Below are positions 3,305-41,392 of a stretch of DNA of 61,990 nt, piece by piece. Every line of letters starts with the position of its first letter. The first letter of the stretch is position 1. Position numbers and translations under genes: made by a program. The notes below the pieces were generated by a model. That model was not told where the DNA came from and searched no databases. It worked only from the letters and a program-made list of their open reading frames with translations. This DNA is from a virus, in UHGV virus genome UHGV-0106586; one strand, 5' to 3'.

Positions 3305-3330
3305 AAAAAGGCTCCCGAAGGAGCCTGTAT
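3305..3330 (-). terminator. rho-independent terminator (ggctcc-cgaa-ggagcc hairpin followed by U-run on minus strand)
   Basis: Perfect 6-bp stem with tetraloop at 3310-3325, A-run on plus strand at 3305-3309. Confidence 0.55.
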
Positions 3331-3337
3331 CTTAACC

Positions 3338-3802
3338 TTAACTGAGGACTTTAGCAAGGATATTCGCAGCCATCGAAGAAGCTTTTGCAGCAGCAACTAC
3401 GCCAGCTTTGACAGTGCCATCCTTAATAGCAGATACCGTTGCAGCATCAGTAAAGAGGTAAGTGATTGTTTTAGAACCACTTGTAAAGGAAAGCATAAGA
3501 GTAGTTTCCAGATTGAAAGAGCGATACGGAGCACCTTCTTTAACGATACCTTCAGCACCTAACTCTGAAGCCTTACCCATATCATAAATAGTCATCAGGT
3601 TTTCTTTGTGTGCAGTCGTTGAACCAGCACCTTTTACGTGCTTTTTAACATTCAACAATGCACGATATTCACGAATGCTGCCATCAGCTTTTACATTAAC
3701 AGCACGAAAAATTTTACCTTCAAAGTTACCTTGAATCAATTTACGAACTACTACAGATTTGTTTGTCGTATCGTCCAGTGCTACCGTAATGATATTGTTC
3801 AT
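3338..3802 (-). CDS. hypothetical protein (154 aa)
   Basis: ORF in track; no motif recognised. Confidence 0.45.
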   Translation of the reverse strand: MNNIITVALDDTTNKSVVVRKLIQGNFEGKIFRAVNVKADGSIREYRALLNVKKHVKGAGSTTAHKENLMTIYDMGKASELGAEGIVKEGAPYRSFNLETTLMLSFTSGSKTITYLFTDAATVSAIKDGTVKAGVVAAAKASSMAANILAKVLS

Positions 3803-3812
3803 AAGTTTTCTC

Positions 3813-4508
3813 TCAATGTTTAACTAACATGGTTTTAATGTGTGGAAGGATTCTATTTACCTTCTGAACATTCTTCTCTGTATCTTCTATAAAGCATACT
3901 ATATTAAAGTAAGGAAGAATGCAAGACTGAATCATCCTAACTTTTAAACTTTCTGCACTTATAGAGTTAGTTCCAAAACCACGCATAAAAAGCAAGTAAC
4001 CATGCTCTATATTGTGCCTTAAAAACATCTCAGTAGGTATTCTCTGAGATTCACCTCTTGCTGTCAAGAGTCCAACTGCTGCATGATTTGCAATTGCATC
4101 AATAATGTTGAAAACATATGTTGGCTTTGCTCTTACAGAATCAAGAAGATTAGTGTACTGTGAGAATGACCCATCAGTCAATTCCGTTGAACAATCTTCG
4201 TGATTAAAATTTGTGAGAACCCCATCAATATCTGCTAAGATGAGATTCCCTTTTTCTACAAGGTCTTTATTGACTATGACTAAGCTATCACGACTTACGC
4301 CTATAGATTGTCCAGTCTCTTTGTCCACAACGTTCACAATTGGTTCTGATGTGTGGAACTCTTCAAGTGAACATACAACTTCTCTTGCAGTGTCTTCAAA
4401 ATCCCTGCACTGTTCTGGAGTCCATACACAGGAATCAAGACCTAACTCATGAGGATGCGAGTCATAAGCATGGCACAGTACTTCATCAGACTTTCTTAAT
4501 TTTTTCAT
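3813..4508 (-). CDS. HAD-superfamily phosphatase, possible 5'(3')-deoxyribonucleotidase
   Basis: LILADIDGVLTNF matches HAD motif I (DxDGx); phage nucleotidase context. Confidence 0.5.
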   Translation of the reverse strand: MKKLRKSDEVLCHAYDSHPHELGLDSCVWTPEQCRDFEDTAREVVCSLEEFHTSEPIVNVVDKETGQSIGVSRDSLVIVNKDLVEKGNLILADIDGVLTNFNHEDCSTELTDGSFSQYTNLLDSVRAKPTYVFNIIDAIANHAAVGLLTARGESQRIPTEMFLRHNIEHGYLLFMRGFGTNSISAESLKVRMIQSCILPYFNIVCFIEDTEKNVQKVNRILPHIKTMLVKH

Positions 4509-5034
4509 GATTTACCTTAGAAATGTTTGTTGCAAATTCACATTGAGCGATAACTTTCATATTGTTATAGACATCTTGAGAGTATTTCTTAGCTTTAGGG
4601 ATTTTGTACGAATACCCAGCATTATATGATGCTAAAACTTTTTGTAAAGTCTTCTTTGATTTTGGCTGACCATGTACCTTTGTCCAAAACTCAAGCTCTT
4701 TATGTGTTTCTTTTGCGGCATAATCAAAATCCTTTAAGAGTTTCTTTTTAGCCACATTAGGACTGATTTTGTTACGCTTTACAACAGTCTTCAAGTGATT
4801 CTGGAAAATACCATAGTCATGGGTCTTTTTATTCTCTACCTTCAGACCTAACTCTGACTCTTGTAAGGCTATAGCTGCTAGAGTGATACCCCAACCTTTG
4901 CCCATATTATCCTCACCATACTGGTAAGCTTTTAACATGTTTACTTTTTGGCTAATTGATAGCTCTGGGCAGTCAACTGCATAAGATAAGTGTGCTGTAA
5001 ACATTAAGCACAAACCTAGAATCAACTTCTTCAT
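4486..5034 (-). CDS. secreted lytic transglycosylase-like protein (SLT family) with N-terminal signal peptide
   Basis: Signal MKKLILGLCLMFTAHLSYA; ALQESELG...YGIFQ and YNAG motifs resemble the SLT catalytic region. Confidence 0.5.
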   Translation of the reverse strand: MKKLILGLCLMFTAHLSYAVDCPELSISQKVNMLKAYQYGEDNMGKGWGITLAAIALQESELGLKVENKKTHDYGIFQNHLKTVVKRNKISPNVAKKKLLKDFDYAAKETHKELEFWTKVHGQPKSKKTLQKVLASYNAGYSYKIPKAKKYSQDVYNNMKVIAQCEFATNISKVNHEKIKKV

Positions 5035-5097
5035 TGGTTCTCCTGTTTAGTTTATCGTGACAACAATTATACAGCACTCTGCACAAAATACAAATAA

Positions 5098-5122
5098 AAA
5101 AGGCCGCCGAAGCAGCCTTTTA
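5098..5122 (-). terminator. hairpin terminator downstream of rIIB
   Basis: aggccgc-cgaa-gcagcct stem-loop with flanking A/T runs. Confidence 0.45.
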
Positions 5123-5134
5123 AGAAATTACTTA

Positions 5135-6244: not shown

Positions 6245-6292
6245 CTTATTACTCTCTCTTGTTAGTTAATAAATCATTTTGTGAGTCTATTC

Positions 6293-6313
6293 TAAGGGGC
6301 TTCAAAGCCCCTT
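6293..6313 (-). terminator. small hairpin between rIIA and rIIB
   Basis: agggg-loop-cccct seen in sequence. Confidence 0.3.
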
Positions 6314-6323
6314 GTCAAACACT

Positions 6324-8690: not shown

Positions 8691-8718
8691 AATACTTTCC
8701 TCTTAGTTTACTGTTAAA

Positions 8719-9212: not shown

Positions 9213-9229
9213 AATCTTCTCCAGAAATT

Positions 9230-9252
9230 AAAAAGGCTCCCGTAGGAGCCTC
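9230..9252 (-). terminator. rho-independent terminator (ggctcc-cgta-ggagcc)
   Basis: Hairpin 9235-9250 with A-run upstream on plus strand. Confidence 0.5.
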
Positions 9253-9265
9253 TTATCATATACTT

Positions 9266-11047
9266 TTAAAGCTGCTTGTCAATATTATTTCGAATATCAC
9301 CAAGAGTTGTGTAGCCGAACTGCTCAGAGTCGCTAAAGACTAGACGTAAAGCACAAGCTGGATGTTCAAGTGCATCTGCAAAGCTCTGGAACCCATAGCC
9401 ATCTACAGCTTTCAGGTTTTCACCATCCCACATAGGTGCTACACCACCAAAAGCAGACTTCTTAACACCACTATCTGTTTTAGGGTCTTTTGCAAGCATA
9501 ATCTCTTTACCACCAATGCTTGCAAGAGTTGCTTTGACAGCAAATGCAAAGGTGTCACGAGTCATGTACTGGTAAGTGTAAGAACCTACACCAAACACTA
9601 CGTTAGAGCTTGCAAAACCCATTTCATACAAACGCTTCAGTATTTCGTTTGCACGTTCCAACGTGATAGAATCACCATAGATAAGGCCAATGTGCTCATC
9701 CAGTACCTTAAAACCTTTAGAGTTGATAGTCCCTCCAAAGATGTTATACAGGGTCTTAATAGCCCCATCAATCTCTGCTACAGGACGTGTTACAACGTTT
9801 GCAGAACCAACCATATAAGCATTTTTCAACATCACTGTATCAGCAACTTCAAAGTCTTCTCTGTCAACAACCATCTCGTAGCCTTCTGACAGTAGCCATC
9901 CAGCAATACCATAATTGATGTTTTCAAGCTTCATGTTCAGAACAGCATTCAACATTGTGTCGCTGGCTTCCAGCTTGCTTAAGTGTTCGTAATAAGCCTT
10001 TTTAGCACACTCTAAATGGATTGCTTTGTATCCTGTGACAATATGTACAGGGTCTCCAGAATCAGGACGAATTACCAGTTTGCCATCACGTCCCATAATC
10101 TCTTTACGGAGTTCTGGCAATATGACTGATACAGTTCTCCAGAAGTTATAAGTATCTGAAACAACACTTGCAATACCAGTTGGGTAAGTTTCTGTTAAGA
10201 AGCGACGGAAGGTTTGTAACTCACCTTTAAAACGTCTTTCATCTTCAATCAATTCATTACCACCTTCCCAAGCAATGTTTGCACACATTACAGAGTGTTC
10301 AGTGGCTGGTACAGAACTACCAATATCAGAGATTGGGTAGGACTGTCCATAGATGCGTTTAGCTGTATATACAGCAGGGAAGCTATCAGTCCCTTTAAAG
10401 CTGGTTAAGTGACCTACAGCATTAAATGCGTCATCAGTAAAGCCAGACATACCACGCATAGCAAAGTCATGGCACTGATAAGGTAAATGTAAGTCGTTGT
10501 CACAAGTAAGGTCAGCCCATTTCTTACAGATACGTTTGTAGTGCAATGCGATAGTTGCAATGGTACAAGCCTTCCAAATCTCAGCAGAGAAAGCATCTTC
10601 CAGATACCCCGCTACCCAATGGAAACCTGAAACAGTGTTCTGGAAGACAATCATTGGTACACGCATAGGGACAACTGTGCCTTCTTCTACAGCGTATACT
10701 TCAACTGGCAGATAACCTAAGTCGTGAAGTGCTTCCCAATGCTCTCGACCAATAGCATCTTTACCCAGAACACCGTTCATGACTTCTAAGATTTCATCAA
10801 TTGCTTCTTTTTTGTCACGTTCGAAGAAGGTGGCGTTCCAGTGGTCTATCAGGTAATCTTTAACAAAACGTTGAATACCAAAAGCCACTACACCGTCAAT
10901 TGCTAAGGGGCTGTTAAACCATTTGTCACTACGTGGTGTTAGGTTGAACATCAAGTACTCTGTTGCGCTAGGATACTGGTAGATGTGACCAGATTTGTAA
11001 GCATCTGCATTTAAACCTGCTGGTACTGCATAAAGTGATTTAGTCAT
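9266..11047 (-). CDS. nadV: nicotinamide phosphoribosyltransferase (NAMPT)-like enzyme, 593 aa, longer than typical ~470-500 aa NAMPT
   Basis: Full-length NAMPT-type fold judged from translation; adjacent to a PRPP-synthetase-like gene; exact substrate (PRPP vs ADPR-PP) not decidable by eye. Confidence 0.8.
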   Translation of the reverse strand: MTKSLYAVPAGLNADAYKSGHIYQYPSATEYLMFNLTPRSDKWFNSPLAIDGVVAFGIQRFVKDYLIDHWNATFFERDKKEAIDEILEVMNGVLGKDAIGREHWEALHDLGYLPVEVYAVEEGTVVPMRVPMIVFQNTVSGFHWVAGYLEDAFSAEIWKACTIATIALHYKRICKKWADLTCDNDLHLPYQCHDFAMRGMSGFTDDAFNAVGHLTSFKGTDSFPAVYTAKRIYGQSYPISDIGSSVPATEHSVMCANIAWEGGNELIEDERRFKGELQTFRRFLTETYPTGIASVVSDTYNFWRTVSVILPELRKEIMGRDGKLVIRPDSGDPVHIVTGYKAIHLECAKKAYYEHLSKLEASDTMLNAVLNMKLENINYGIAGWLLSEGYEMVVDREDFEVADTVMLKNAYMVGSANVVTRPVAEIDGAIKTLYNIFGGTINSKGFKVLDEHIGLIYGDSITLERANEILKRLYEMGFASSNVVFGVGSYTYQYMTRDTFAFAVKATLASIGGKEIMLAKDPKTDSGVKKSAFGGVAPMWDGENLKAVDGYGFQSFADALEHPACALRLVFSDSEQFGYTTLGDIRNNIDKQL

Positions 11048-11065
11048 CTTTTAATCTCTCTCGAA

Positions 11066-11085
11066 ATGGGGCTTGTAAGCCCCTA
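11066..11085 (-). terminator. hairpin between NAMPT-like and PRPP-synthetase-like genes
   Basis: ggggctt-gt-aagcccc inverted repeat. Confidence 0.3.
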
Positions 11086-11092
11086 TAAAGTT

Positions 11093-11974: not shown

Positions 11975-11984
11975 AGTTTCTCTC

Positions 11985-12771: not shown

Positions 12772-12787
12772 ATTATCTCCAAAATAA

Positions 12788-12812
12788 AAAAGGGAACCTT
12801 TACAGTTCCCTA
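12788..12812 (-). terminator. hairpin terminator (gggaac...gttccc)
   Basis: Inverted repeat flanked by A/T runs. Confidence 0.4.
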
Positions 12813-12823
12813 ATCATATAGTC

Positions 12824-13135
12824 TTACTGTGAGATTTTCAACACTTTGAGGAAGCCTTCTTCACCAATGTTGCTTATAATGTAATTTGTAGGTTTAATAG
12901 AATGGTTTAGACATACAATCTTCTTGTCTTTCTTGTTGTAAGTTAGTTTAAGCTGTTCTAGCTCTTTACTACCATCAAGAGATTCATTGTACATCTTCAC
13001 AGCTTTCTTAAATGGGATGTGTTCACCACCAAAGGTTAGAAATCCCGTACCACAATAATGTGCGTTATGTTGCTCAACCATAAACTGACACAGAACTGCA
13101 ATCTGAATCTTACGAGTGTTATAAATCTTTTTCAT
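12824..13135 (-). CDS. hypothetical protein (103 aa)
   Basis: ORF in track. Confidence 0.4.
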   Translation of the reverse strand: MKKIYNTRKIQIAVLCQFMVEQHNAHYCGTGFLTFGGEHIPFKKAVKMYNESLDGSKELEQLKLTYNKKDKKIVCLNHSIKPTNYIISNIGEEGFLKVLKISQ

Positions 13136-14771: not shown

Positions 14772-14924
14772 TTTAACTTATCTCTCAACTCACAATAAGA
14801 GAGTCCTAAAAAGAACCCCAGTAAGACAGAACCTATGAACAGGCCAATGATGCTCTCTGCCATATCTAACATCCAATAAAAAGGTGATGTAAGCCTATCA
14901 AGACTCACACCACCTTGTCAAGTT

Positions 14925-17830: not shown

Positions 17831-17856
17831 AAAAAGGTCTCCGAAGAGACCCTTTC
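17831..17856 (-). terminator. rho-independent terminator (ggtctc-cgaa-gagacc)
   Basis: Hairpin 17836-17851 with flanking A-run. Confidence 0.5.
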
Positions 17857-17859
17857 ATT

Positions 17860-18066
17860 TTAAATCTTTTTAGAAAACTTCGCAAAGAGTTCTCTTAGTT
17901 TTTCAGTTATACCTAACTGTATCTCTAATATTTCGAAGATAACCCATAGTAACATGGCTCCAAACAATGAACCTTGCTCAAAGTCAGTAAATAGGTTAAC
18001 AATAAGCATACCAATCACAATAGCTGGTGCATCAACAACCAAACCTTCCCAAATGCGTTTAAGCAT
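17860..18066 (-). CDS. small membrane protein (68 aa)
   Basis: ORF in track; hydrophobic VVDAPAIVIGMLIVNLF segment. Confidence 0.35.
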   Translation of the reverse strand: MLKRIWEGLVVDAPAIVIGMLIVNLFTDFEQGSLFGAMLLWVIFEILEIQLGITEKLRELFAKFSKKI

Positions 18067-21933: not shown

Positions 21934-21960
21934 TGAAAAGAGCCTCCGAAGAGGCTCCCT
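21934..21960 (-). terminator. rho-independent terminator (gagcctc-cgaa-gaggctc)
   Basis: Hairpin 21940-21957 with A-run. Confidence 0.5.
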
Positions 21961-30821: not shown

Positions 30822-30822
30822 A

Positions 30823-31245: not shown

Positions 31246-31502
31246 GTAAGCCTCTTTTAAGTAACTATTAAGTTTTAATCTTTTATCTTAACGTATTCTA
31301 TACGTTATACTTTAAAGCTTTTTAAAAGCTATTAAATAATCTTTTAAGAGTTTTAAAGTATCTGTATAGTTAAACTGTTAAGTAACCTTTTAAGTAAAAA
31401 CCCACTTCGCAAAGATTAACACCTTGTCAAGTGCATTGTCAACTTGCTTTTTATAATTTTTTGCAGTAATGTATGAGGTTAATGATTTTAGAGGGAGTAA
31501 AA
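31246..31502. promoter_or_regulatory. AT-rich divergent control region between minus-strand and plus-strand gene blocks; palindromes (ctttaaag, gctttttaaaagc); candidate promoters and/or replication origin
   Basis: Strand switch at this point; TTGTCA and TATAAT hexamers present but spacing imperfect; palindromes seen directly. Confidence 0.4.
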
Positions 31503-34202: not shown

Positions 34203-34687
34203 CACTTCAAGACTACAAGGATAATTTTATTTATGACCCCGACAAAGGGGTCTTCTACAACAAGTATGACAGGAATAGGCAAGCTAAAGCTGGGCAGATT
34301 GCAGGAGGAAGTGATGCTTATGGTTACAAAGTACTTAAATTCAAAGATGTCGTAATAAAAGTTCATCACCTCGTTTGGTGGTTCGAGCATGGTTACAAGC
34401 CCACTAAGATGATAGACCACATTGATGGTAACAGAAGTAATAATCATATCTCTAATCTTAGGGAGACTGATAAGTATGGAAACGCCCAAAACAGAGTTAA
34501 GCAGACAGCTAACAAGTCAGGTTACAAGGGTGTGCATTATTTTAAAGACTGCAATAAATGGAGGGCTGCTATAACATGCAGAGGTAAAAGGACATCACTT
34601 GGCTTATTTGACACACCAGAAGAAGCCCATAAAGCTTACTGTGAAGCTGCTATTAAACTCCACGGAGAGTTTGCAAAACTAAGTTGA
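34184..34687 (+). CDS. HNH endonuclease with AP2 domain (free-standing, overlapping the 3' end of the polymerase gene)
   Basis: KVHHLVWWFEHGYKP...IDHIDGNRSNNHISNLRE plus AP2-like SGYKGVHYFKDCNKWRAAI...GLFDTPEEAHKAY. Confidence 0.75.
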   Translation: MVRRTLTLQDYKDNFIYDPDKGVFYNKYDRNRQAKAGQIAGGSDAYGYKVLKFKDVVIKVHHLVWWFEHGYKPTKMIDHIDGNRSNNHISNLRETDKYGNAQNRVKQTANKSGYKGVHYFKDCNKWRAAITCRGKRTSLGLFDTPEEAHKAYCEAAIKLHGEFAKLS

Positions 34688-34738
34688 CAAGGTGCTCAGG
34701 GAAGAGTACCTTATACAATATCTTATATAGGAGGGCTT

Positions 34739-34948
34739 ATGAGCCACCGTGGAAGAACCCATGCAGCGATGATGAAAGGTGCTTCAAAGGAGACTATCAA
34801 AAATCGTAAGCAGAAGTTGTTTGAGAGAATGAACAGGTTAATTGACAATTCATCTCTTTCAGGTTCTGAGAAGGTTTTCTTGAAAGGTAATCTGAAAAGC
34901 GTTGCACAAGAACTTATTGACATTGAGTATTGGAGACATCAAAAATGA
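34739..34948 (+). CDS. hypothetical protein (69 aa)
   Basis: ATG with AGGAGGG RBS. Confidence 0.4.
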   Translation: MSHRGRTHAAMMKGASKETIKNRKQKLFERMNRLIDNSSLSGSEKVFLKGNLKSVAQELIDIEYWRHQK

Positions 34949-35157
34949 CACTTGCAGACGTTATTCAGCAACTTCACGACAATTGCTATACTCCAGAGTT
35001 GATTCAGGAGATGTCTATTGTGGTAATGCCTTGTAAGTTCGTAAAAGCTTTTAATGGCGAATCTTTAAGGTCTGCACATATCCTTATTGTTGACGGTAAG
35101 ATTGCAAGGGACCGTACAGGAGTCCTTAAGGGTGAACGTATTAGCATTGACATCTGA
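34945..35157 (+). CDS. hypothetical protein (70 aa from ATG 34945)
   Basis: ATG with GGAGA RBS; track start is a TTG. Confidence 0.4.
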   Translation: MTLADVIQQLHDNCYTPELIQEMSIVVMPCKFVKAFNGESLRSAHILIVDGKIARDRTGVLKGERISIDI

Positions 35158-35174
35158 GTATTGGAGATACCAAA

Positions 35175-35330
35175 ATGAAACGCAAAGTAAAATTCTTTAG
35201 TTTGTATGGAAGAGTCGGTAAAGGTTTTGATTGGCAACTTCTACGTTCAGATGTTAAAAGCAACGAGTTAGCACAGCTTATTATAAACTATCGACGAACG
35301 TACAGAGAAGTAGAACATCGTGAACAGTAA
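35175..35330 (+). CDS. small hypothetical protein (51 aa), below track cutoff
   Basis: Hand-translated MKRKVKFFSLYGRVGKGFDWQLLRSDVKSNELAQLIINYRRTYREVEHREQ; GGAGA RBS. Confidence 0.3.
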   Translation: MKRKVKFFSLYGRVGKGFDWQLLRSDVKSNELAQLIINYRRTYREVEHREQ

Positions 35331-35343
35331 TAGGAGAAGTATT

Positions 35344-35580
35344 ATGTGGAAAGCAGTAATTGTGCTTAGTGTTATCCTTCTATCTGGCTGTAATCCCTCT
35401 TACGAGGACAAAAATGCTTCTTATAGCCTCCCACCAGAGATGCAAGATTGCAAAGTCTATAAGTTACATGGTGATGCCATAAGCAGAGATATTGTTGTTG
35501 TCAGATGTCCAAACTCTCAAACAACAACATCTTATAGCTATGGAAAAAATGGTCAATCACACACTACTGTTATTGAGTGA
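35344..35580 (+). CDS. small lipoprotein (78 aa), early region
   Basis: Signal MWKAVIVLSVILLSGC with lipobox LSGC; ATG with AGGAGA RBS. Confidence 0.5.
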   Translation: MWKAVIVLSVILLSGCNPSYEDKNASYSLPPEMQDCKVYKLHGDAISRDIVVVRCPNSQTTTSYSYGKNGQSHTTVIE

Positions 35581-35590
35581 GGTGTTCAAG

Positions 35591-35797
35591 ATGGAAGTCC
35601 TAGTAAACTATATCTACTGTTATGATGTTGTTCACTCCACTACAACCGTAGCTCAACGTAACCCAATCGTCCCACGAGAAGGTGAGTTGGTTCGAATCGA
35701 GGGTTGGACTTACACTGTGGAAAGCATCATTCATAAGTTTGATGTTGCTGGTGATGTTCAAGTTATTGATGTAGAGATTGGTGGTAAGAGAAAATGA
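35591..35797 (+). CDS. hypothetical protein (68 aa from ATG 35591)
   Basis: ATG with GAGG RBS. Confidence 0.4.
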   Translation: MEVLVNYIYCYDVVHSTTTVAQRNPIVPREGELVRIEGWTYTVESIIHKFDVAGDVQVIDVEIGGKRK

Positions 35798-35979
35798 AAA
35801 CAGAACCTGTAAAAACTGAAGACGGAAACATTGAGACATTCTCAATCACAGTCGCTGGTGATGAGTTCTCTTGCAAATGTGGGTGTAACTGCTTTCATAA
35901 ACCAGATAAAACAAAACTTGGTCTTTATGAATGTAATAGCTGTGGGTTGAGGTTCTTAGACAAAAGCAAGGATATGTGA
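35794..35979 (+). CDS. small zinc-ribbon protein, paralog A
   Basis: FSCKCGCNCFHKPDK...YECNSCG; paralogous to ORF 36307..36498. Confidence 0.45.
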   Translation: MKTEPVKTEDGNIETFSITVAGDEFSCKCGCNCFHKPDKTKLGLYECNSCGLRFLDKSKDM

Positions 35980-36227
35980 TGAAGATAACTCAAGAAATGA
36001 AGAAGTTGTATGAGAGAAGTGTGAAGATTCCACCAAGAACTGATGCAAAGAAATTACTATTCAACTCTTGGATGAATGATTGCACGTATGAGCAATACTA
36101 CTTTAAAGTAATAGCATCAGGCGAAAGACCAGAATCACCTGAATTTTATGATATTTACATAAAGGAGCAAGATGAAAAATGTTTAGATTTCTACGAAAAA
36201 TACATGGAAGTTATAAATTCAATTTAA
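35976..36227 (+). CDS. hypothetical protein (83 aa)
   Basis: ORF in track. Confidence 0.4.
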   Translation: MMKITQEMKKLYERSVKIPPRTDAKKLLFNSWMNDCTYEQYYFKVIASGERPESPEFYDIYIKEQDEKCLDFYEKYMEVINSI

Positions 36228-36306
36228 TTATCAAAGAAGACTTTGGTGGACATGCTTGGCACTCCTTCTACTCAAAAGGCTCCATAGATTGTGAGGCAAG
36301 AGATAA

Positions 36307-36498
36307 ATGAACAAAGAAGATAAGCATAAAAATGCTGTACGTACTCCTGATGGAAAGGTTCAATCCTTCATCCTGACAGTTGGTGGAAAGACGTTTCGTT
36401 GCCACTGCGGAGCAAACTGTTTTCATAAACCAGATAAAAATGACCTAGAGCTTTACGCATGTAATGCTTGCAATACTTGGTATCACTCAGAGGAATAA
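36307..36498 (+). CDS. small zinc-ribbon protein, paralog B
   Basis: FRCHCGANCFHKPDK...YACNACN; paralogous to ORF 35794..35979. Confidence 0.45.
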   Translation: MNKEDKHKNAVRTPDGKVQSFILTVGGKTFRCHCGANCFHKPDKNDLELYACNACNTWYHSEE

Positions 36499-36499
36499 A

Positions 36500-37600
36500 A
36501 TGACAATTCTATACAAACAAAATAAAGATGGCTCTTTTAACGTCTGGTCATGCGTTGCTGTAGGCGACAAAGTTATTACAACCTACGGTAAAGAAAATGG
36601 CAAGATGATGTTTGAAGAGTATACAGCAGAACCTAAAAACATCGGTAAAAAGAATGAGCGTAACGCTGAACAGCAAGCTCTCTTTGAAGTTGCTGCTAAG
36701 TATAAAAAGCAAGTTGACCGTAAAGGTTATGCTTACACAAAAGAGTCTGCACAGAATACTGAGAAGGTAGGTGTACAACTTGCTCATGATGCTGCAAAGG
36801 TTAGTCATGCAAAGTATTTGATATTCCCTGCTGATGCTCAACCAAAACTTGATGGTGTTCGTTGTAGAATTTCAAGAGATGCTGATTCAGTTAGCTTCAC
36901 GGCCTATTCTCGTGAGAATACTGTTTACAACGTCCCAGCAGAACTAATCCCAGATTTACTTTTGTTGCTTAAATTGCATCCACAAGTCGAAGACTTTGAT
37001 GGTGAGATTTATGCTCACGGTTGGGACTTAGAAGATATTGTGTCTATGATTAAGAATGCTGACAATCCAGAACGCCACCTTCTTAAATTCTACTGGTATG
37101 ATATCTGTGACAATTCAAAAACTTGGCCTGAGCGTCGTGAAGTTATTGATAACTCACCCATTATTGAGCTTGGTGATACCTGTAGAGTTGTTCCTGTACA
37201 GACTATCCGTGTTAACTCTTGGGAAGAGTTTGATGAAGCTCATGATAAGTGGGTTGAAGCTAAGTTTGAAGGTGCAATGTACCGTTCAATCTCTGAAGAC
37301 TCCTTCTATGAGTGTTGTCACCGTTCATACTTCTTGATTAAGCACAAGAAGATGCACACTGAAGAGTTTAAAGTGACTGGTGTAAAGACTGATAAGCGTG
37401 GTCATGGCAAGTTCGTTGTAGAGACTCTTCCTAACGTCTTTGTAGATGTCTCATGGAAGACTACTCATGAGAAGAAACAGTATCTTGCTGAGCATCCTGA
37501 AGAGTTTATCGGGAAACCTTTAACGGTTCAGTTCCAGAAGATGACTCGTAAGGGGTCTTTACAGTTTCCTGTTGGTTTAGTTATTCGAGATTACGAATAA
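36500..37600 (+). CDS. ATP-dependent DNA ligase
   Basis: KLDGVRC adenylation motif I (KxDG); size ~366 aa; ATG 36500 with AGGA RBS. Confidence 0.75.
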   Translation: MTILYKQNKDGSFNVWSCVAVGDKVITTYGKENGKMMFEEYTAEPKNIGKKNERNAEQQALFEVAAKYKKQVDRKGYAYTKESAQNTEKVGVQLAHDAAKVSHAKYLIFPADAQPKLDGVRCRISRDADSVSFTAYSRENTVYNVPAELIPDLLLLLKLHPQVEDFDGEIYAHGWDLEDIVSMIKNADNPERHLLKFYWYDICDNSKTWPERREVIDNSPIIELGDTCRVVPVQTIRVNSWEEFDEAHDKWVEAKFEGAMYRSISEDSFYECCHRSYFLIKHKKMHTEEFKVTGVKTDKRGHGKFVVETLPNVFVDVSWKTTHEKKQYLAEHPEEFIGKPLTVQFQKMTRKGSLQFPVGLVIRDYE

Positions 37601-37606
37601 AAGTTG

Positions 37607-37634
37607 TTGACATAGATAATTTGGTGAGTATACT
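37607..37634 (+). promoter_or_regulatory. sigma70-like promoter (-35 TTGACA 37607-37612, 16-bp spacer, -10 TATACT 37629-37634) overlapped by an 8-bp inverted repeat (37623-37630 / 37655-37662)
   Basis: Hexamers and dyad read directly. Confidence 0.5.
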
Positions 37635-37804
37635 GAGCATCATAAACCGACGGGTACTCACCAGCATCACTTAAGAGTCTTCTAAGAGGGTTTTTAAGTA
37701 ATGTTCGGTCGGGTTTGGTAGGGTAAGGTCGGGTAAGGTAAGGTAATGTATGGAAGGATGGCAGTAACCTTATAAAAAATCTGCCAAATAAGCTATAAAG
37801 TCTG

Positions 37805-37839
37805 TTGACAAGTCAGGTGTTATAGCTTATTTTTATACT
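37805..37839 (+). promoter_or_regulatory. second promoter-like element (TTGACA 37805-37810; -10 either TATTTT or TATACT) embedded in the inverted repeat agctataa / ttatagct
   Basis: Seen directly; -10 assignment ambiguous. Confidence 0.3.
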
Positions 37840-37877
37840 CAACGTAATACAAAATTTAATATAACTTTGAGGTCATT

Positions 37878-38261
37878 ATGAAAAAGATTTTATTAGCTGC
37901 TGCAATGGTTATGGCAATGAATTTACCAGTCAATGCAACAGAACTCCCCAATGTGGACTTATCAGGTGTTCCAGAAGACACTTGTCAGATTGTTAAAGGT
38001 GTTGCTTTGGCTAATGGTGAGTTACTTAAACCAATCTCTGAAGAGTCTTTAACAGAGATGACTGATAAGGTGACTGACTATCAGTATCGTGTTCTTGCAG
38101 AGTATTTCCTGCAATCTGCAAACATTAAAGAGAAGCACCATGAAGATATTGATGTACAGGCTATGCTCAATCATCGTATTCAGTTTAAAGAAGACTTGAT
38201 GCAAAAAGCTATGTATGGTGTTGAGTATTTCTTAGAAAACAGAAGCTGCACAGGTATTTGA
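37878..38261 (+). CDS. secreted/periplasmic hypothetical protein with signal peptide
   Basis: N-terminal MKKILLAAAMVMAMNLPVNA signal-like sequence. Confidence 0.5.
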   Translation: MKKILLAAAMVMAMNLPVNATELPNVDLSGVPEDTCQIVKGVALANGELLKPISEESLTEMTDKVTDYQYRVLAEYFLQSANIKEKHHEDIDVQAMLNHRIQFKEDLMQKAMYGVEYFLENRSCTGI

Positions 38262-38262
38262 T

Positions 38263-38475
38263 ATGGCTCTTAAAAAGTTACATCCCAGAAGCGGTTATGG
38301 TAAGATAATTGACGATACAGACGGCTTTACAGTCTTTACAGTTATCTGTCAAGATGATTCACAGATTGAAAAGGCTCTTGATGATTATCTTAACGATGAA
38401 CGTGAAAAGGTTAGGGCTACAAACATAGATTCATTGATTGACACTTCACGCAAACGGAAGAAGAAAGATGAATGA
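38263..38475 (+). CDS. hypothetical protein (70 aa)
   Basis: ORF in track. Confidence 0.35.
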   Translation: MALKKLHPRSGYGKIIDDTDGFTVFTVICQDDSQIEKALDDYLNDEREKVRATNIDSLIDTSRKRKKKDE

Positions 38476-38767
38476 GATTTTTGACCCTTATGCTCCACAA
38501 GATGATTGGGAGGCTGACAGAGAGGCTGAAATGGAGAGTTATATTTGTCCAATGGATGTAGACGAAATGAGAGACTTCGTTGCACATCGTTTTAAGAGAG
38601 AGATTAAATCCAGAGGTCTTTCTCAAGAGCAAGTTGCTAAAATTTGTGGTATCTCTCAGGCTCGTGTATCCAACATAATCAATCTCACTGGTAATGTCTC
38701 CCTTGAGTTTATGTTGGAAGTATGTGAAAAATTTGGTGTTAACTTTAATTTAAGGCTGGCAGATTAA
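38468..38767 (+). CDS. helix-turn-helix DNA-binding protein (XRE-like), probable transcriptional regulator
   Basis: LSQEQVAKICGISQARVSNI resembles an HTH; ATG 38468. Confidence 0.5.
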   Translation: MNEIFDPYAPQDDWEADREAEMESYICPMDVDEMRDFVAHRFKREIKSRGLSQEQVAKICGISQARVSNIINLTGNVSLEFMLEVCEKFGVNFNLRLAD

Positions 38768-38768
38768 T

Positions 38769-39128
38769 ATGAAACGTGAAAACATTATCCACTCTGAAAA
38801 CTTCGCATTAGGCTTTTATGGTGTGCCTACTCACCTTGAAAAGTATTATGGTGTAAAGATTCTCTCCAATCTCATTATGGCTTACAAAGATGGTAAGATT
38901 AAACATACTGAGAAGAAACGTGTCATGGGTTATATGGCTGTAGGTTCAGCAATCTCAAACATTAAGCTGGAAACAACTAGTAGCCAGATTGTGAAAGACC
39001 ACTTCATCAAAGAGCTTTACCACAATCTTGATGGTGTAGATGTTCAGGCTGTTTGGCTGGATGTTGATGGTCACAACTACACAAGTTTCGTTTTCAAAAA
39101 TGATGACATCAAGTGTCTGTTCCCATAA
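38769..39128 (+). CDS. hypothetical protein (119 aa)
   Basis: ORF in track. Confidence 0.45.
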   Translation: MKRENIIHSENFALGFYGVPTHLEKYYGVKILSNLIMAYKDGKIKHTEKKRVMGYMAVGSAISNIKLETTSSQIVKDHFIKELYHNLDGVDVQAVWLDVDGHNYTSFVFKNDDIKCLFP

Positions 39129-39141
39129 TAGGTGATTAACT

Positions 39142-39657
39142 ATGATTGATATCTACTTACAAGATGCTCATGCAGATTTCCTTAAGGAAATGCTTAAAAA
39201 GTTTATGGCTTCACAGTATGAGAATGAAGCATCTTTTAAAATAGTCACATGTGGCGACGAAGCTGGTTTTGTTGAGATTGAGCATGAAGGTACTGGAAAG
39301 ACTGTTTGTAAGTTACCTGATAGCATGTTCTCTAGCACATTCTTAGCAAAGACTATCATAAATGTTAAGCTTGTACCTCAGATTGAAACATACTCTGGTA
39401 CAGATTACCCTAAAGGTTTTAAGTCACTGATGAAGTACTTCTTAGATGACTTTGTGAGCAATCTTCTGCGAGAGGTAAAAGAAAGTCGTACAGTGTTGAC
39501 TGTAGAGAATATGGGAGGCACTATTAGGGTTACTTCTGACTGCTTTGTTATGAACCTCTTCGACTTCGTTCCTAAGAACTTTGATGGTATTCTGGATGAA
39601 GAGGATGACTGTGTAGACTTTATATTGGTTCTTGAACCAGTTTTTGAGGTTAAATAA
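39142..39657 (+). CDS. hypothetical protein (171 aa)
   Basis: ORF in track. Confidence 0.45.
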   Translation: MIDIYLQDAHADFLKEMLKKFMASQYENEASFKIVTCGDEAGFVEIEHEGTGKTVCKLPDSMFSSTFLAKTIINVKLVPQIETYSGTDYPKGFKSLMKYFLDDFVSNLLREVKESRTVLTVENMGGTIRVTSDCFVMNLFDFVPKNFDGILDEEDDCVDFILVLEPVFEVK

Positions 39658-39921
39658 ATGAAAATTGAACACTGCTATGAGTCTGATGGAACACCTATCC
39701 GATGTCCACATTGTGGGTGTACAGACTTACAAGGCGAGGTAAGTGAAATAGTCAACGGTCATATTGCTGAAGAGAGTACAAGGTGTACAGGATGTAATGA
39801 AATCATTGCTTTCTGGGCTTATGGTTTATACCAGCCTACACCACACTTAATCTACCATAGCAATAAAGCTGTGAAGAATGTTATTAACTGGTTCATTAAG
39901 AAAGGATTTACAAATGATTAA
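39658..39921 (+). CDS. small zinc-ribbon-like protein (CPHCGC...CTGCN)
   Basis: Two CxxC pairs. Confidence 0.4.
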   Translation: MKIEHCYESDGTPIRCPHCGCTDLQGEVSEIVNGHIAEESTRCTGCNEIIAFWAYGLYQPTPHLIYHSNKAVKNVINWFIKKGFTND

Positions 39922-40459
39922 ATTAATCTTTGCAAGTGGTGAAAATGGGGAGTTTGGTACTCCAACTGGTATGCCGTGGCCTCGACATAAACAGGACATG
40001 CAAGAGTTTAAGAGACTCACTAAAAATAACTTAGTAGTGATGGGTAATGAAACTTTCAAGACTCTGGGAAGTAAACCTTTACCAGAACGTGCAAACCTCA
40101 TCTTAACAAACTCTGTACCATATTTAGGCATAGATTTTGGCAAAGATGATGTAATGTATGCTAAGGCCAGCAAAGAATCCTTTGGAGCATTTTTGAACTA
40201 TCTTGATAGCTCTATTGATGAAGATGTATTTGTAATTGGTGGTGCAGGTGTCCTTGTCAATGCTTTACCGTATGCTGGTGTAGTTTTCCATACAGTTTTC
40301 CATAAAGTTACTGAAGAGGCCACTGTGCATTTACCTTTTGAAAACTTCTTTGAGAAGCTGTATGATAACCGTGTATTTACAAAGGTACAGTCAAAACCAT
40401 CAGAGGATGGTAAAGCAACCTTTGAAATTTATGTTCCACAAGTAAAAGGACACTTTTGA
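39914..40459 (+). CDS. folA: dihydrofolate reductase
   Basis: MIKLIFASGENGEFG...MPW...VVMGNETFKTLG...PLPERANLILT follows the DHFR N-terminal pattern; directly upstream of thymidylate synthase. Confidence 0.75.
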   Translation: MIKLIFASGENGEFGTPTGMPWPRHKQDMQEFKRLTKNNLVVMGNETFKTLGSKPLPERANLILTNSVPYLGIDFGKDDVMYAKASKESFGAFLNYLDSSIDEDVFVIGGAGVLVNALPYAGVVFHTVFHKVTEEATVHLPFENFFEKLYDNRVFTKVQSKPSEDGKATFEIYVPQVKGHF

Positions 40460-40460
40460 T

Positions 40461-41360
40461 ATGTCACAAGCAGATACAAGTTACAAAAATATCCTGAACC
40501 ATGTTTTATCAGTCGGTGAACTGCGTACTACACGAACTGGAGATGTTATCTCTGCATTTGCTCCACCACAATTTCGTTTTGATATGAGAACTGGTTTCCC
40601 ACTATTAACATCTAAACAGGTGTTTACACGGCAAGTTATTGGGGAAGCTTTATGGTTCCTGAACGGTGAGAATAAACTGGGTGAACTCCGTTACCGTACT
40701 TGGGGTGAAAATGACGGAGAACGTTGGACAATCTGGTCAGATGATTTCAAACGCTGGTTAAGCTCTAATTATTCTTCTGAACAAGATTGGTTAGAAGATG
40801 CAGGTGGGAGAATCTACGGAGTTCAGTGGAGAAACTTTGAAGGTCATAATGGTTGTGTTGTAGACCAGTTAGATACCTTAGTAACGAAGATGAAGGGTGA
40901 TATCACAGACCGTTACATGCTTGTTAATGCTTGGAATGCAGCAGATATTGCAGCTAACTCAATGGCTTTAGCACCTTGTCATGTTCTGTTTCAGATTTAT
41001 ATCACTAACGAGGGTGAAGTTGACTTACAATGGTATCAGCGTTCTGTAGACACCTTTTTAGGACTTCCCTTTAACATTGCATCTTATGGCTTTATTCTGG
41101 AAGTTCTTTGTAAGATGACTGGATACACTCCACGGTACTTGATAGGTGTTTTTGGAGATACCCAGATTTATCAGAACCATATGAAGCAGGTTTATGAACT
41201 GATGAACAATGAAGAGTTCCATGCACCAACTTTTGAGATTGGTATCCCACTTAACACTTTAAGTGACTTAAAACATCTCACTGCAAGTGACTTTATTGGT
41301 GGTATTAACAATTACCAACATGCAGGAAAGATTGAAGCACCTTTGTCAGTAGGTAAATAA
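40461..41360 (+). CDS. thyA: thymidylate synthase (ThyA family; a dUMP-modifying hydroxymethylase variant cannot be excluded by eye)
   Basis: MALAPCH (catalytic Cys), QRSVDTFLGLPFNIASY, GDTQIYQNH and C-terminal ...APLSVGK align with E. coli ThyA as recalled. Confidence 0.8.
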   Translation: MSQADTSYKNILNHVLSVGELRTTRTGDVISAFAPPQFRFDMRTGFPLLTSKQVFTRQVIGEALWFLNGENKLGELRYRTWGENDGERWTIWSDDFKRWLSSNYSSEQDWLEDAGGRIYGVQWRNFEGHNGCVVDQLDTLVTKMKGDITDRYMLVNAWNAADIAANSMALAPCHVLFQIYITNEGEVDLQWYQRSVDTFLGLPFNIASYGFILEVLCKMTGYTPRYLIGVFGDTQIYQNHMKQVYELMNNEEFHAPTFEIGIPLNTLSDLKHLTASDFIGGINNYQHAGKIEAPLSVGK

Positions 41361-41364
41361 AACA

Positions 41365-41392
41365 AAAAAGGCTCCCGTAAAAAGGAGCCTTA
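41365..41392. terminator. bidirectional hairpin terminator between convergent genes (ggctcc-cgtaaaaa-ggagcc)
   Basis: Stem 41370-41375 / 41384-41389 with A/T runs on both sides. Confidence 0.55.

What the first reader, a model, noticed from the sequence alone, without database searches (positions are those of the whole stretch)
3305..41392. Stereotyped terminator hairpins recurring across the genome
Near-identical hairpins of the form AAAAA-GGCTCC-loop-GGAGCC (3310-3325, 9235-9250, 41370-41389) and close variants (17836-17851 ggtctc...gagacc; 21940-21957 gagcctc...gaggctc) follow many operons. Most have a CGAA or CGTA tetraloop. Such uniformity suggests one ancestral terminator module spread by duplication, and the sites are useful anchors for operon structure.
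Basis: seen in the sequence. Interest (0 to 1): 0.3.

Follow-up and report, generated by a model that had tools for sequence, protein, structure and literature searches.

The report
Known phage terminator hairpins, UUCG loops
These are ordinary transcription-stop hairpins of a Felix O1-type phage, already listed in the 2010 Felix O1 genome paper. Their sameness within a phage lineage is real, but one ancient duplication does not explain it.

Summary
The window is a Felixounavirus genome piece, 95-96% identical to E. coli phages KEP3 and Pr103Blw. The reported hairpins are at the stated coordinates but were read on the non-coding strand. On the '-' strand, which codes there, they read GGCUCC-UUCG-GGAGCC-U5 and variants. 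That is the form of an intrinsic (Rho-independent) terminator capped by a C(UNCG)G tetraloop.

- **Membership:** a sixth member lies at 5096-5121. The 41370 hairpin has an 8-nt loop, not a tetraloop.
- **Prior knowledge:** five of the six are orthologues of terminators t2, t5, t111, t116 and t79/t80 in the Felix O1 paper.
- **Selection on structure:** they sit at orthologous gene junctions in four genera, and their stems covary.
- **Not lineage-specific:** the exact hairpin also occurs in more than 100 unrelated viral contigs and more than 120 bacterial genomes.

The "one ancestral module spread by duplication" reading is only partly supported. Copies share no flanks, and orthologous sites carry different stems in different genera. 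Kolesnikvirus has 11-12 identical GGACUC-UUCG-GAGUCC copies, which points to homogenisation within a lineage.

Three further results: conserved sigma-70-like promoters end 2-5 nt upstream of four hairpins; the 41380 loop has flipped at least 9 times among 31 genomes; some hairpins abut ORF indel hot spots. Core finding: known and ordinary.

The parts
3305..3326 (-). T3318: hairpin GGCUCC-UUCG-GGAGCC plus U5. It lies between a 154-aa ORF (3338-3802) and the i-spanin gene (2938-3285). Orthologue of Felix O1 t5.
   Evidence: synteny; Felix O1 Table 2
3329..3357 (-). Promoter-like TTGCTA-17-TAAGAT whose -10 ends 3 nt before the T3318 stem. In other genera the -10 is TATGAT, TATTAT, TAATAT or TACTAT.
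5096..5121 (-). It has a U.G pair here and U-A in Suspvirus/Mooglevirus; the loop is UCCG in LF82P3. Orthologue of Felix O1 t2.
5066..5094 (-). Promoter-like element downstream of T5110: TTTGTA-17-TATAAT here, TTGAAA-16-TATAAT in Mooglevirus. The TATAAT is invariant in 26 unique sequences. This is the PeSL-like order, stem-loop then promoter.
9230..9254 (-). T9243: GGCUCC-UACG-GGAGCC plus U5, after the nicotinamide phosphoribosyltransferase gene (9266-11047). Not listed in the Felix O1 table.
9255..9282 (-). Near-consensus sigma-70-type promoter TTGACA-16-TATGAT whose -10 ends 4 nt before the T9243 stem. Both hexamers are conserved in 20 unique sequences from three genera while the spacer varies.
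17831..17851 (-). T17844: GGUCUC-UUCG-GAGACC plus U5, upstream of nrdD (16612-17811). Orthologue of Felix O1 t116.
17857..17885 (-). Promoter-like TTGCGA-17-TAAAAT whose -10 ends 5 nt before the T17844 stem. Suspvirus has TTGAGA-17-TAATAT and Mooglevirus TTGAAA-17-TAATAT.
21936..21960 (-). T21949: (GG)GAGCCUC-UUCG-GAGGCUC plus U4, upstream of nrdA (19684-21918). Two compensatory pair swaps separate it from the Suspvirus/Mooglevirus version. Orthologue of Felix O1 t111.
41364..41391 (.). T41380: GGCUCC-(8-nt loop)-GGAGCC between convergent genes, thymidylate synthase (40461-41360, +) and ORF 41397-41768 (-). The U6 tract is on the '-' strand only. The loop orientation is polymorphic among relatives. 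Orthologue of Felix O1 t79/t80.
12786..12841 (-). Same architecture with a non-UNCG hairpin: TTGAAA-17-TATGAT, 2 nt, then GGGAACU-GUAAA-GGUUCCC plus U6. Orthologue of Felix O1 t124.

Best explanation
The hairpins are intrinsic (Rho-independent) terminators for host RNA polymerase transcribing the '-' strand early and middle genes of a Felixounavirus.

**Inferred mechanism (established model; not measured here).** The nascent RNA folds into a 6-10 bp G+C-rich stem. Folding is nucleated by a very stable C(UNCG)G tetraloop. The stem is followed by 4-6 U, which weakens the RNA:DNA hybrid, so the transcript is released. The same hairpin then shields the 3' end from exonucleases.

**Shown here.** The anatomy, the position and orientation relative to genes, conservation in four genera, and covariation of the stems.

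**Setting (inferred).** The hairpins sit in very compact cassettes of about 75 nt. The -35 lies in the last codons of the upstream gene, the stop codon lies in the spacer, and the -10 ends 2-5 nt before the stem. Then come the hairpin, the U tract, the Shine-Dalgarno sequence and the ATG. A start about 7 nt after the -10 would fall inside the 5' arm. Transcripts from these promoters would then lack a full hairpin and pass the terminator that stops upstream transcripts.

**Why they look alike.** First, the sequence space for a short G+C stem closed on C(UNCG)G is small, and the same 16-mers arise independently everywhere. Second, some lineage-specific homogenisation acts on top of that; its mechanism is unresolved.
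For: - **Anatomy and energy:**
- **Position:** all are intergenic, 3-17 nt after a stop codon, and co-oriented with the genes.
- **Chance:** no such hairpin appeared in 100 simulated windows.
- **Conservation:** the sites are orthologous in Felixounavirus, Suspvirus and Mooglevirus. The hairpin is 100% conserved at three sites where flanks are 76-85% identical.
- **Covariation:** T21949 shows C-G to U-A and A-U to G-C swaps; T5110 shows U.G versus U-A; one genome has a UCCG loop, still UNCG. In the pooled alignment 98.7% of cells pair, 5 of 7 pairs change on both sides, and 0 of 500 shuffles reach this.
- **Prior prediction:** TransTerm/MFOLD predicted the same sites in Felix O1 (PMC3185647, Table 2).
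- **Generic nature:** 107 of those loci show no similarity to Ounavirinae, and they contain 55 GGCTCC-stem UNCG terminators. The exact 21-mer is in at least 120 bacterial genomes of many phyla, where I calculate about 0.3 expected.
- **Promoters:** 3 of 15 hairpins have a match of at least 9/12 with the -10 ending 2-5 nt upstream, against 0.16 expected. The hexamers are conserved while the spacers vary.
Against: - No 3'-end or termination data exist for this phage or, as far as my literature searches show, for any Felixounavirus.
- The U tract of T21949 is short and interrupted (UUUUCAUCU).
- RT-PCR in Felix O1 detected transcripts for all 102 ORFs tested, so termination cannot be complete.
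- The promoter and start-site part rests on consensus matches and conservation only. A-T-rich intergenic DNA gives many weak matches, and T3318 scores only 8/12 in this window.
- Small sequence space alone does not explain 11-12 identical copies in Kolesnikvirus.
Confidence: 0.85

Rival explanations
1. One reading: a single ancestral terminator module was copied around the genome, and today's similarity is inherited from that duplication.
For: - Identical stems are in excess within genomes. The pairwise identity of 6-bp stems is 0.10-0.27 in Felixounavirus, Suspvirus and Mooglevirus and 1.0 in Kolesnikvirus, against 0.028 in unrelated loci.
- T3318 and T9243 align over about 56 nt at about 80%, covering hairpin, T tract and Shine-Dalgarno sequence.
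- Two inserted cassettes are bounded by same-stem hairpins: L158 and Ep030 63442/64711.
Against: - Flanks of the copies are not homologous. The 56-nt similarity covers only functionally constrained parts.
- At six or seven orthologous junctions the stem is GGACUC in Kolesnikvirus but GGCUCC, GGCUGC, GAGCCUC, GGGGCU or GGGAACU in Felixounavirus. Paralogues are therefore more alike than orthologues.
- T21949 differs between Felixounavirus and Suspvirus by compensatory swaps, so stems do drift.
- The same exact hairpins occur in hundreds of unrelated genomes.
Confidence: 0.12
2. Concerted evolution through DNA exchange. The hairpins, with their A/T tracts and adjacent promoter and Shine-Dalgarno sequences, act as short homology patches for the phage recombination machinery. 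This homogenises them by short-patch conversion and lets ORF cassettes enter or leave at them, as proposed for PeSL cassettes of T4-like phages.
For: - Stereotypes are lineage-specific at orthologous sites: Kolesnikvirus 11-12 x GGACUC, and Zyzzx-like phages 4 x GGGGUCU...AGACCCC in 45 kb.
- In Suspvirus and Mooglevirus the T21949 hairpin is identical to T17844.
- In contig L157 the T3318 loop is UACG, as in T9243.
- Indel hot spots lie 8-22 nt from T3318, T9243 and the 14881-14916 hairpin.
- The Dam-like methylase cassette is bounded by two GGCTCC hairpins.
- PeSL precedent, including lineage-specific stem-loop consensus (PMC2839356, PMC4122927).
Against: - The shared tract is only 16-24 nt, shorter than the homology usually invoked.
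- No conversion tract extending into the flanks was seen.
- Only 3 of about 17 indel sites abut a hairpin, which is no clear excess over other gene junctions.
- No mini-circle or recombinant junction evidence is available.
Confidence: 0.35
3. A lineage-specific factor reads the stem sequence, and selection for that recognition keeps all copies identical within a lineage. The factor could be a phage or host RNA-binding protein, a nuclease or termination factor, or a DNA-binding protein recognising the inverted repeat.
For: - Kolesnikvirus keeps 11-12 copies 100% identical although the GGACUC stem is weaker (-8.7 kcal/mol) than GGCUCC (-10.8).
- In unrelated phage loci the same hairpins are single-copy, and neighbouring UNCG terminators use other stems.
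Against: - No candidate protein was identified.
- Felixounavirus, Suspvirus and Mooglevirus tolerate three or four different stems in one genome.
- Other terminators in the same genomes have unrelated stems.
- 6-bp stems closed by tetraloops offer little specific surface.
Confidence: 0.12
4. The hairpins act mainly as RNA stability or processing elements rather than as terminators. They would be 3' barriers to exonucleases, or 5'-terminal protective hairpins on transcripts from the abutting promoters.
For: - The promoter -10 ends 2-5 nt before the stem, so a start 5-6 nt after the -10 would put the hairpin at the very 5' end.
- The next gene's Shine-Dalgarno sequence is 8-20 nt away, so read-through RNA must exist.
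- From my own knowledge, not checked here: Tuerk et al. 1988 described C(UUCG)G hairpins in T4 intercistronic regions in connection with RNA stability.
Against: - Each hairpin is followed directly by a U tract. A stability element does not need one; a terminator does.
- The stems are far too short for RNase III.
- This role is not exclusive of termination.
Confidence: 0.1

Closest known systems
Predicted Rho-independent terminators of phage Felix O1 (Whichard et al. 2010, Viruses 2:710; PMC3185647, Table 2: t2, t5, t111, t116, t79/t80, also t13, t104, t124, t35)
   Same: The sequences are the same or nearly the same, at orthologous gene junctions: t5 = ggctccttcgggagcctttttcattt, t2 = ggctgcttcggcggcctttttt..., t111 = gagcctcttcggaggctctttt, t116 = ggtctcttcggagaccttttt, t79/t80 = ggctcctttttacgggagcc.
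   Different: The GGCUCC-UACG hairpin after the nicotinamide phosphoribosyltransferase gene (9230-9254) is not in that table. The paper did not comment on the UNCG loops, on stem uniformity or on abutting promoters. It stated that how transcription gets past the many terminators is unknown.
C(UUCG)G hairpins of phage T4 intercistronic regions and the UNCG tetraloop class
   Same: UUCG, UACG or UCCG loop closed by a C-G pair on a short G+C stem, in intergenic regions of a lytic coliphage.
   Different: Ounavirinae are unrelated to T4. Here each hairpin carries a U tract and fits a full terminator. The 41380 hairpin is not a tetraloop.
PeSL (promoter-early stem-loop) cassettes of T4-like phages (Arbiol et al. 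2010, PMC2839356; Comeau et al. 2014, PMC4122927)
   Same: Compact composite of a sigma-70-like promoter, a terminator stem-loop, a Shine-Dalgarno sequence and a start codon between small early genes. The stem-loop consensus is lineage-specific. Some elements sit next to ORF insertions and deletions.
   Different: In PeSLs the stem-loop lies just upstream of the promoter. Here that order holds only at T5110. At T9243, T3318, T17844 and 12786-12841 the promoter comes first, and its -10 ends 2-5 nt before the stem. Copies share only the hairpin and T tract, not a long conserved cassette. Enrichment at indels is not shown, and mini-circles were not tested.
REP/REPIN and other short intergenic palindromic repeats of bacteria (from my own knowledge)
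   Same: Short palindromes at gene ends, with sequence families specific to a species.
   Different: No conserved flanks and no doublet organisation were seen. I did not search for a RAYT transposase. The elements here are 16-24 nt with a U tract.
Hairpin-loop micro-inversions in chloroplast non-coding DNA (from my own knowledge), as a comparison for the 41380 loop
   Same: A short loop between perfect inverted repeats flips repeatedly and independently among close relatives.
   Different: Here it occurs in a phage bidirectional terminator. The loop is 8 nt and the arms 8 bp. No functional consequence is shown.

Membership tests
Intrinsic (Rho-independent) terminator | G+C-rich RNA hairpin with a stem of about 5-14 bp and a loop of 3-8 nt | tested here: met
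   Stems are 6-10 bp with 4-5 G-C pairs; loops are 4 nt, or 6-8 nt at 41380. Folding energy is -14 to -16.6 kcal/mol, z = -3.4 to -5.7.
Intrinsic (Rho-independent) terminator | U-rich tract immediately 3' of the stem | tested here: met
   T4-T6 directly follows each of the six stems on the '-' strand. It is weakest at T21949 (TTTTCATCT). The '+' strand side of 41380 lacks a tract (TTAAACTT).
Intrinsic (Rho-independent) terminator | Located downstream of a gene and co-oriented with it | tested here: met
   The hairpins lie 3-17 nt after stop codons of '-' strand ORFs. No such hairpin lies inside a gene or on the wrong strand.
Intrinsic (Rho-independent) terminator | RNA 3' ends and polymerase release at the U tract | not testable with these tools
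   No Term-seq or in vitro data were found.
C(UNCG)G tetraloop hairpin | Four-base UNCG loop closed by a C-G pair | tested here: met
   Met at 3318 (UUCG), 5110 (UUCG), 9243 (UACG), 17844 (UUCG) and 21949 (UUCG). Not met at 41380, whose loop is UUUUUACG.
PeSL cassette (T4-like phages) | Sigma-70-like promoter, stem-loop, Shine-Dalgarno sequence and ATG within one short intergenic cassette | tested here: met
   Seen at T9243 (11/12), 12786-12841 (10/12), T17844 (9/12), T3318 (8/12) and T5110 (downstream TATAAT). The hexamers are conserved across genera.
PeSL cassette (T4-like phages) | Stem-loop placed just upstream of the promoter | tested here: not met
   Only T5110 has this order. In the other four the promoter precedes the stem-loop.
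PeSL cassette (T4-like phages) | Cassette-wide sequence conservation among copies in one genome | tested here: not met
   Copies share the hairpin and T tract only; the flanks are not homologous.
PeSL cassette (T4-like phages) | Association with ORF insertions, deletions or replacements | tested here: inconclusive
   Hot spots lie 8-22 nt from three hairpins, and one cassette is bounded by two hairpins. But only 3 of about 17 indel sites abut a hairpin.
PeSL cassette (T4-like phages) | Recombination between copies producing mini-circles | not testable with these tools
   This needs inverse PCR or deep sequencing of infected cells.
REP/REPIN or MITE-like mobile repeat | Conserved repeat longer than the hairpin, with defined ends or target duplications and a cognate transposase | tested here: not met
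   There is no homology beyond the hairpin and T tract among 12 Kolesnikvirus copies or among the Felixounavirus copies. I did not search for a transposase.

The most novel reading that the evidence does not exclude
In Ounavirinae the terminators are parts of overlapped promoter-terminator cassettes of a kind not described for PeSLs. The -10 element ends 2-5 nt before the stem. RNA polymerase starting there would begin inside the 5' arm and so ignore the terminator. Alternatively it would start just before the stem and make a 5'-hairpin-capped mRNA, or a roughly 22-nt terminated hairpin RNA. This would answer the question left open for Felix O1: how transcription gets past its many terminators. 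In addition, the hairpins would undergo concerted evolution within each lineage through short-patch exchange or cassette insertion. The 41380 loop would be a fast-flipping micro-inversion produced by the same hairpin-prone DNA.
Probability: 0.35. Interest if true: 0.55.

Novelty: already known. Interest (0 to 1): 0.3.

Why it matters
As reported, the finding adds little. It re-discovers the predicted terminators of Felix O1-type phages and a long-known loop motif. It is useful mainly for annotating transcription units in this contig.

Three by-products could matter to phage biologists and to people who design compact genetic insulators.
1. Terminator stems are uniform within a lineage but differ between lineages at orthologous sites. 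This is a clean small system for studying concerted evolution of regulatory hairpins.
2. Conserved promoters end a few bases before the terminator stem. This suggests a very compact way to stop one transcript and start the next within about 75 nt.
3. A terminator loop has flipped orientation at least nine times among 31 close relatives.

All three need RNA-end mapping or population sequencing before they count as findings.

Tried and rejected
- **Rfam:** a scan of the whole window at gathering thresholds gave no hit. The hairpins belong to no curated RNA family, and the nrdD insertion matched no Rfam group I intron model at gathering threshold.
- **M13/fd terminator:** I tried to confirm from memory that the gene VIII terminator of filamentous phage M13/fd has the same GGCTCC stem. 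A 40-nt megablast query gave no match, probably because the query is short and low in complexity. I do not rely on it.
- **Felixounavirus transcript maps:** the literature search returned nothing relevant.
- **UUCG enrichment in terminators:** the search returned only structural papers. That statement rests on my own knowledge.
- **Within-genome uniformity as a general phage property:** rejected. In 342 unrelated loci only 3 of 54 within-locus pairs share a stem.
- **Hairpins enriched at indel breakpoints:** not convincing. 3 of about 17 sites is similar to the share of gene junctions that carry a hairpin.
- **RNase III sites:** rejected because the stems are too short.
- **REP- or MITE-like mobile repeats:** rejected because the copies share no flanks.
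- **Riboswitch or attenuator:** considered, but I ran no search for alternative pairings.
- **Absolute counts in the public collections:** not obtainable, because scans stop at 120 rows.

Full report
**What the window is.** A 9-kb piece matches Escherichia and Salmonella phages of the genus Felixounavirus (subfamily Ounavirinae) at 95-96% identity over its full length. An IMG/VR contig of 62,131 nt encodes an identical rIIB protein and is probably the source. G+C content is about 38-40%. Long ORFs run on the '-' strand in 1-31245 and 41397-57368, and on the '+' strand in 31473-41360 and after 57577. Gene names below come from synteny with annotated relatives.

**Checking the observation.** They were read on the '+' strand, as A-run, stem, loop, stem. 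The genes around four of them are on the '-' strand, and the fifth lies between convergent genes. On the '-' strand they have the textbook order stem, loop, stem, T-run:
- GGCTCC-TTCG-GGAGCC-T5 (3325..3305)
- GGCTCC-TACG-GGAGCC-T5 (9250..9230)
- GGTCTC-TTCG-GAGACC-T5 (17851..17831)
- GAGCCTC-TTCG-GAGGCTC-T4 (21957..21936)
- GGCTCC-TTTTTACG-GGAGCC-T6 (41389..41364)

The 41380 hairpin is not a tetraloop.

The hairpins fold at -14 to -16.6 kcal/mol with z-scores of -3.4 to -5.7. A strict search for C(TNCG)G hairpins with a T tract finds four in the window and none in 100 simulated sequences. All lie 3-17 nt after a stop codon and point the same way as the genes. The window also holds about nine other terminator-like hairpins with unrelated stems. 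The stereotyped set is therefore a minority of the terminators.

**Already known.** The Felix O1 genome paper lists predicted Rho-independent terminators (PMC3185647, Table 2). t5, t2, t111, t116 and t79/t80 are the orthologues of the hairpins at 3318, 5110, 21949, 17844 and 41380. t13, t104 and t124 match other hairpins in the window. Only the 9243 hairpin is absent from that table. The same paper says that how transcription gets past these numerous terminators, by read-through or by secondary promoters, is not known.

**Conservation and covariation.** I fetched whole or partial genomes of four more Felixounavirus phages, Suspvirus EP1, Mooglevirus ESh20, the unclassified Salmonella phage S.Kent 1-2-1, Kolesnikvirus Ep030 and Hafnia phage Zyzzx. 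I also fetched 32 IMG/VR loci around rIIB.

All six hairpins sit at orthologous junctions in Felixounavirus, Suspvirus and Mooglevirus. At 3318, 9243 and 17844 the hairpin is identical in all of them, while the flanks are 76-85% identical. Three differences preserve the structure:
- At 5110 a U.G pair in Felixounavirus is U-A in the other two genera.
- In one genome the 5110 loop is UCCG, still a UNCG loop.
- At 21949 two pairs are swapped on both sides (C-G to U-A, and A-U to G-C).

In an alignment of 12 orthologous and paralogous hairpins, 98.7% of cells pair and 5 of 7 pairs change on both sides. No shuffle out of 500 reaches this. Selection therefore acts on the RNA (or single-strand) structure, as expected for terminators.

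**Is the sameness inherited from one duplication?** Three results argue against it.

1. The copies share only the hairpin and the T tract. T3318 and T9243 align over about 56 nt, but that stretch is hairpin, T tract and Shine-Dalgarno sequence. The 12 copies in Kolesnikvirus have unrelated flanks.

2. The exact sequences are common property.
In the 107 of those loci with no similarity to Ounavirinae there are 55 GGCTCC-stem hairpins with a UNCG loop and a T tract.
   - The exact 21-mer GGCTCCTTCGGGAGCCTTTTT is in at least 120 bacterial genomes, including Pseudomonadota, Bacteroidota, bdellovibrio-like bacteria (Bacteriovoracaceae), Leptospira and Saccharibacteria. I calculate about 0.3 expected by chance in 596 Gb.
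   - GGACTC-TTCG-GAGTCC-T4 is equally widespread.

3. Orthologous sites carry different stems in different genera. Kolesnikvirus Ep030 has 12 copies of GGACTC-TTCG-GAGTCC plus one with another loop. Two other Kolesnikvirus contigs show the same. By protein synteny these copies occupy the following junctions:
   - after rIIB;
   - after the gene upstream of the spanins;
   - after the nicotinamide phosphoribosyltransferase gene;
   - before nrdA;
   - after the endolysin gene;
   - after a tail-fibre gene;
   - before the orthologue of the gene downstream of 12786-12841.

   At these junctions Felixounavirus has GGCUGC, GGCUCC, GGCUCC, GAGCCUC, GGCUCC, GGGGCU and GGGAACU stems respectively. Paralogues within a genome are thus more alike than orthologues between genera.

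**But the uniformity is real.** In 342 unrelated phage and bacterial loci (2.86 Mb), two UNCG terminators share a 6-bp stem with probability 0.028. Only 3 of 54 within-locus pairs are identical. The corresponding fraction is 0.10 in this window, 0.19-0.27 in whole Felixounavirus and Suspvirus genomes, and 1.0 (11 of 11) in Kolesnikvirus.

Zyzzx-like phages have no UUCG set but repeat GGGGUCU-loop-AGACCCC four times in 45 kb. The GGACUC stem is not the most stable choice: -8.7 against -10.8 kcal/mol. Something therefore homogenises stems within a lineage, or constrains them in a lineage-specific way.

I cannot tell which. The candidates are short-patch DNA exchange, or cassette insertion at the hairpins, or a factor that reads the stem. 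In favour of exchange:
- In Suspvirus and Mooglevirus the 21949 hairpin is identical to the 17844 one.
- Contig L158 has a 1.87-kb Dam-like methylase cassette inserted right after the 3318 hairpin, ending in a second GGCTCC-stem hairpin.
- Ep030 has an extra gene between two GGACTC hairpins at the same site.

Against it, only 3 of about 17 indel sites in the window abut a hairpin.

**Promoters that abut the hairpins.** The consensus scan placed a near-perfect promoter, TTGACA-16-TATGAT, at 9282..9255. It ends 4 nt before the 9243 stem. The same geometry occurs at three other hairpins:
- 12841..12813: TTGAAA-17-TATGAT, 2 nt before the stem
- 17885..17857: TTGCGA-17-TAAAAT, 5 nt before the stem
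- 3357..3329: TTGCTA-17-TAAGAT, 3 nt before the stem

Three of 15 hairpins score at least 9/12 in this 2-7 nt position, where 0.16 is expected from the window's own background.

Across genera the hexamers are kept or change within the TAnnnT and TTGnnA pattern. The spacers, which contain the upstream gene's stop codon, vary freely. At the 12810 site the geometry persists in Kolesnikvirus even though the hairpin itself has been replaced.

A start about 7 nt after the -10 would fall inside the 5' arm. This is an inference from the usual spacing, not a measurement. Such transcripts would lack a complete hairpin and would pass the terminator that stops upstream transcripts. A start slightly further upstream would instead give a 5'-terminal hairpin, or a very short terminated RNA.

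T5110 has the opposite order. The hairpin comes first, then an invariant TATAAT 25 nt after the U tract.

**Comparison with known systems.** The closest described composite elements are the PeSL cassettes of T4-like phages. They combine a sigma-70-like early promoter with a terminator stem-loop, a Shine-Dalgarno sequence and a start codon. Their stem-loop consensus is lineage-specific, and they have an experimentally supported role in ORF shuffling through recombination between copies (PMC2839356, PMC4122927).

The elements here work like PeSLs in being compact promoter-terminator units. They fail two defining features. In PeSLs the stem-loop lies upstream of the promoter, and the whole cassette is conserved among copies. 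I therefore do not file them as PeSLs.

They are plain members of the class of intrinsic terminators and, for five of the six, of C(UNCG)G hairpins. The T4 literature on CUUCGG hairpins (Tuerk et al. 1988) and the statement that UUCG loops are over-represented in E. coli terminators come from my own knowledge and were not verified here.

**The 41380 hairpin.** It lies between the convergent thymidylate synthase gene and ORF 41397-41768. It keeps its GGCUCC stem even in Kolesnikvirus. Its 8-nt loop occurs in two orientations with identical flanks:
- TTTTTACG in this window and 14 other IMG/VR contigs;
- CGTAAAAA in 14 contigs.

On a neighbour-joining tree of the 400 nt on each side, 31 genomes need at least 9 changes of state. 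The window's own contig and a near-identical one differ in state. Recombination between genomes could inflate this count, but both states occur in Felixounavirus and both occur in the Suspvirus/Mooglevirus clade. This looks like recurrent micro-inversion between the 8-bp arms.

**Verdict.** The terminator reading is right and already published for the type phage. The single-ancestral-module reading is not supported in its simple form. The lineage-specific uniformity, the abutting promoters and the flipping loop are new observations as far as my searches show, but they are modest and untested. I rate the core finding as known and ordinary, with interest 0.3.

Noticed in passing
window 41364-41391, with related loci L285-L313: The 8-nt loop of the bidirectional terminator occurs in both orientations among otherwise near-identical Ounavirinae genomes (15 versus 14 IMG/VR contigs). 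At least 9 flips are needed on a flank-based tree of 31 genomes.
   Followed up: yes
window 15872-16614 (ORF 16035-16499, '-'): A 741-nt insertion, absent from every relative aligned across this site, carries an HNH_3 endonuclease ORF. It splits the anaerobic ribonucleotide reductase gene nrdD into two ORFs (16612-17811 and 14925-15791). No Rfam group I intron hit was found, so it may be a free-standing homing endonuclease that creates a gene in pieces.
   Followed up: partly
window 24099-24623 ('-') and 34184-34687 ('+'): Two more HNH_3 + AP2-domain endonuclease ORFs. The first lies in a 507-nt insertion that the aligned relatives lack.
   Followed up: partly
window about 9213-9223, just downstream of the 9243 hairpin and Shine-Dalgarno sequence: An ORF indel hot spot. 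Relatives show three alternative states here: no insert, a roughly 345-nt ORF, or a roughly 200-nt ORF. One IMG/VR contig (L134) lacks 2.7 kb covering the nicotinamide phosphoribosyltransferase gene and most of the adjacent ribose-phosphate pyrophosphokinase gene (deletion 9221-11968).
   Followed up: partly
L158:12932-14720: A 1.87-kb cassette is inserted directly after the orthologue of the 3318 hairpin. It carries a Dam-like methyltransferase ORF (named from its N-terminal sequence only) and a 270-aa ORF. It ends in a second hairpin, GGCTCC-AGAA-GGAGCC-T5.
   Followed up: partly
L130+L009+L131 (Erwinia phage Ep030), L161, L164: Kolesnikvirus genomes carry 11-12 identical GGACTC-TTCG-GAGTCC terminators, including at junctions orthologous to hairpins that have other stems in this window.
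   Followed up: yes
L434 (Hafnia phage Zyzzx) and L163: This lineage has no UUCG set but repeats other stems: GGGGTCT-loop-AGACCCC four times in 45 kb, and GGCTGC(C/T)CT-loop-AG(G/A)GTGGCC after rIIB and after nrdD.
   Followed up: partly
window 5066-5071 ('-'): A TATAAT hexamer, invariant in 26 unique sequences from three genera, lies 25 nt after the U tract of the rIIB terminator. It is probably a promoter for the next gene.
   Followed up: partly
window 31473-41360 ('+' strand gene block): No canonical terminator was found on the '+' strand anywhere in this 10-kb block of replication and nucleotide-metabolism genes. Its only hairpin is the shared one at 41364-41391, which lacks a U tract on that strand.
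   Followed up: no
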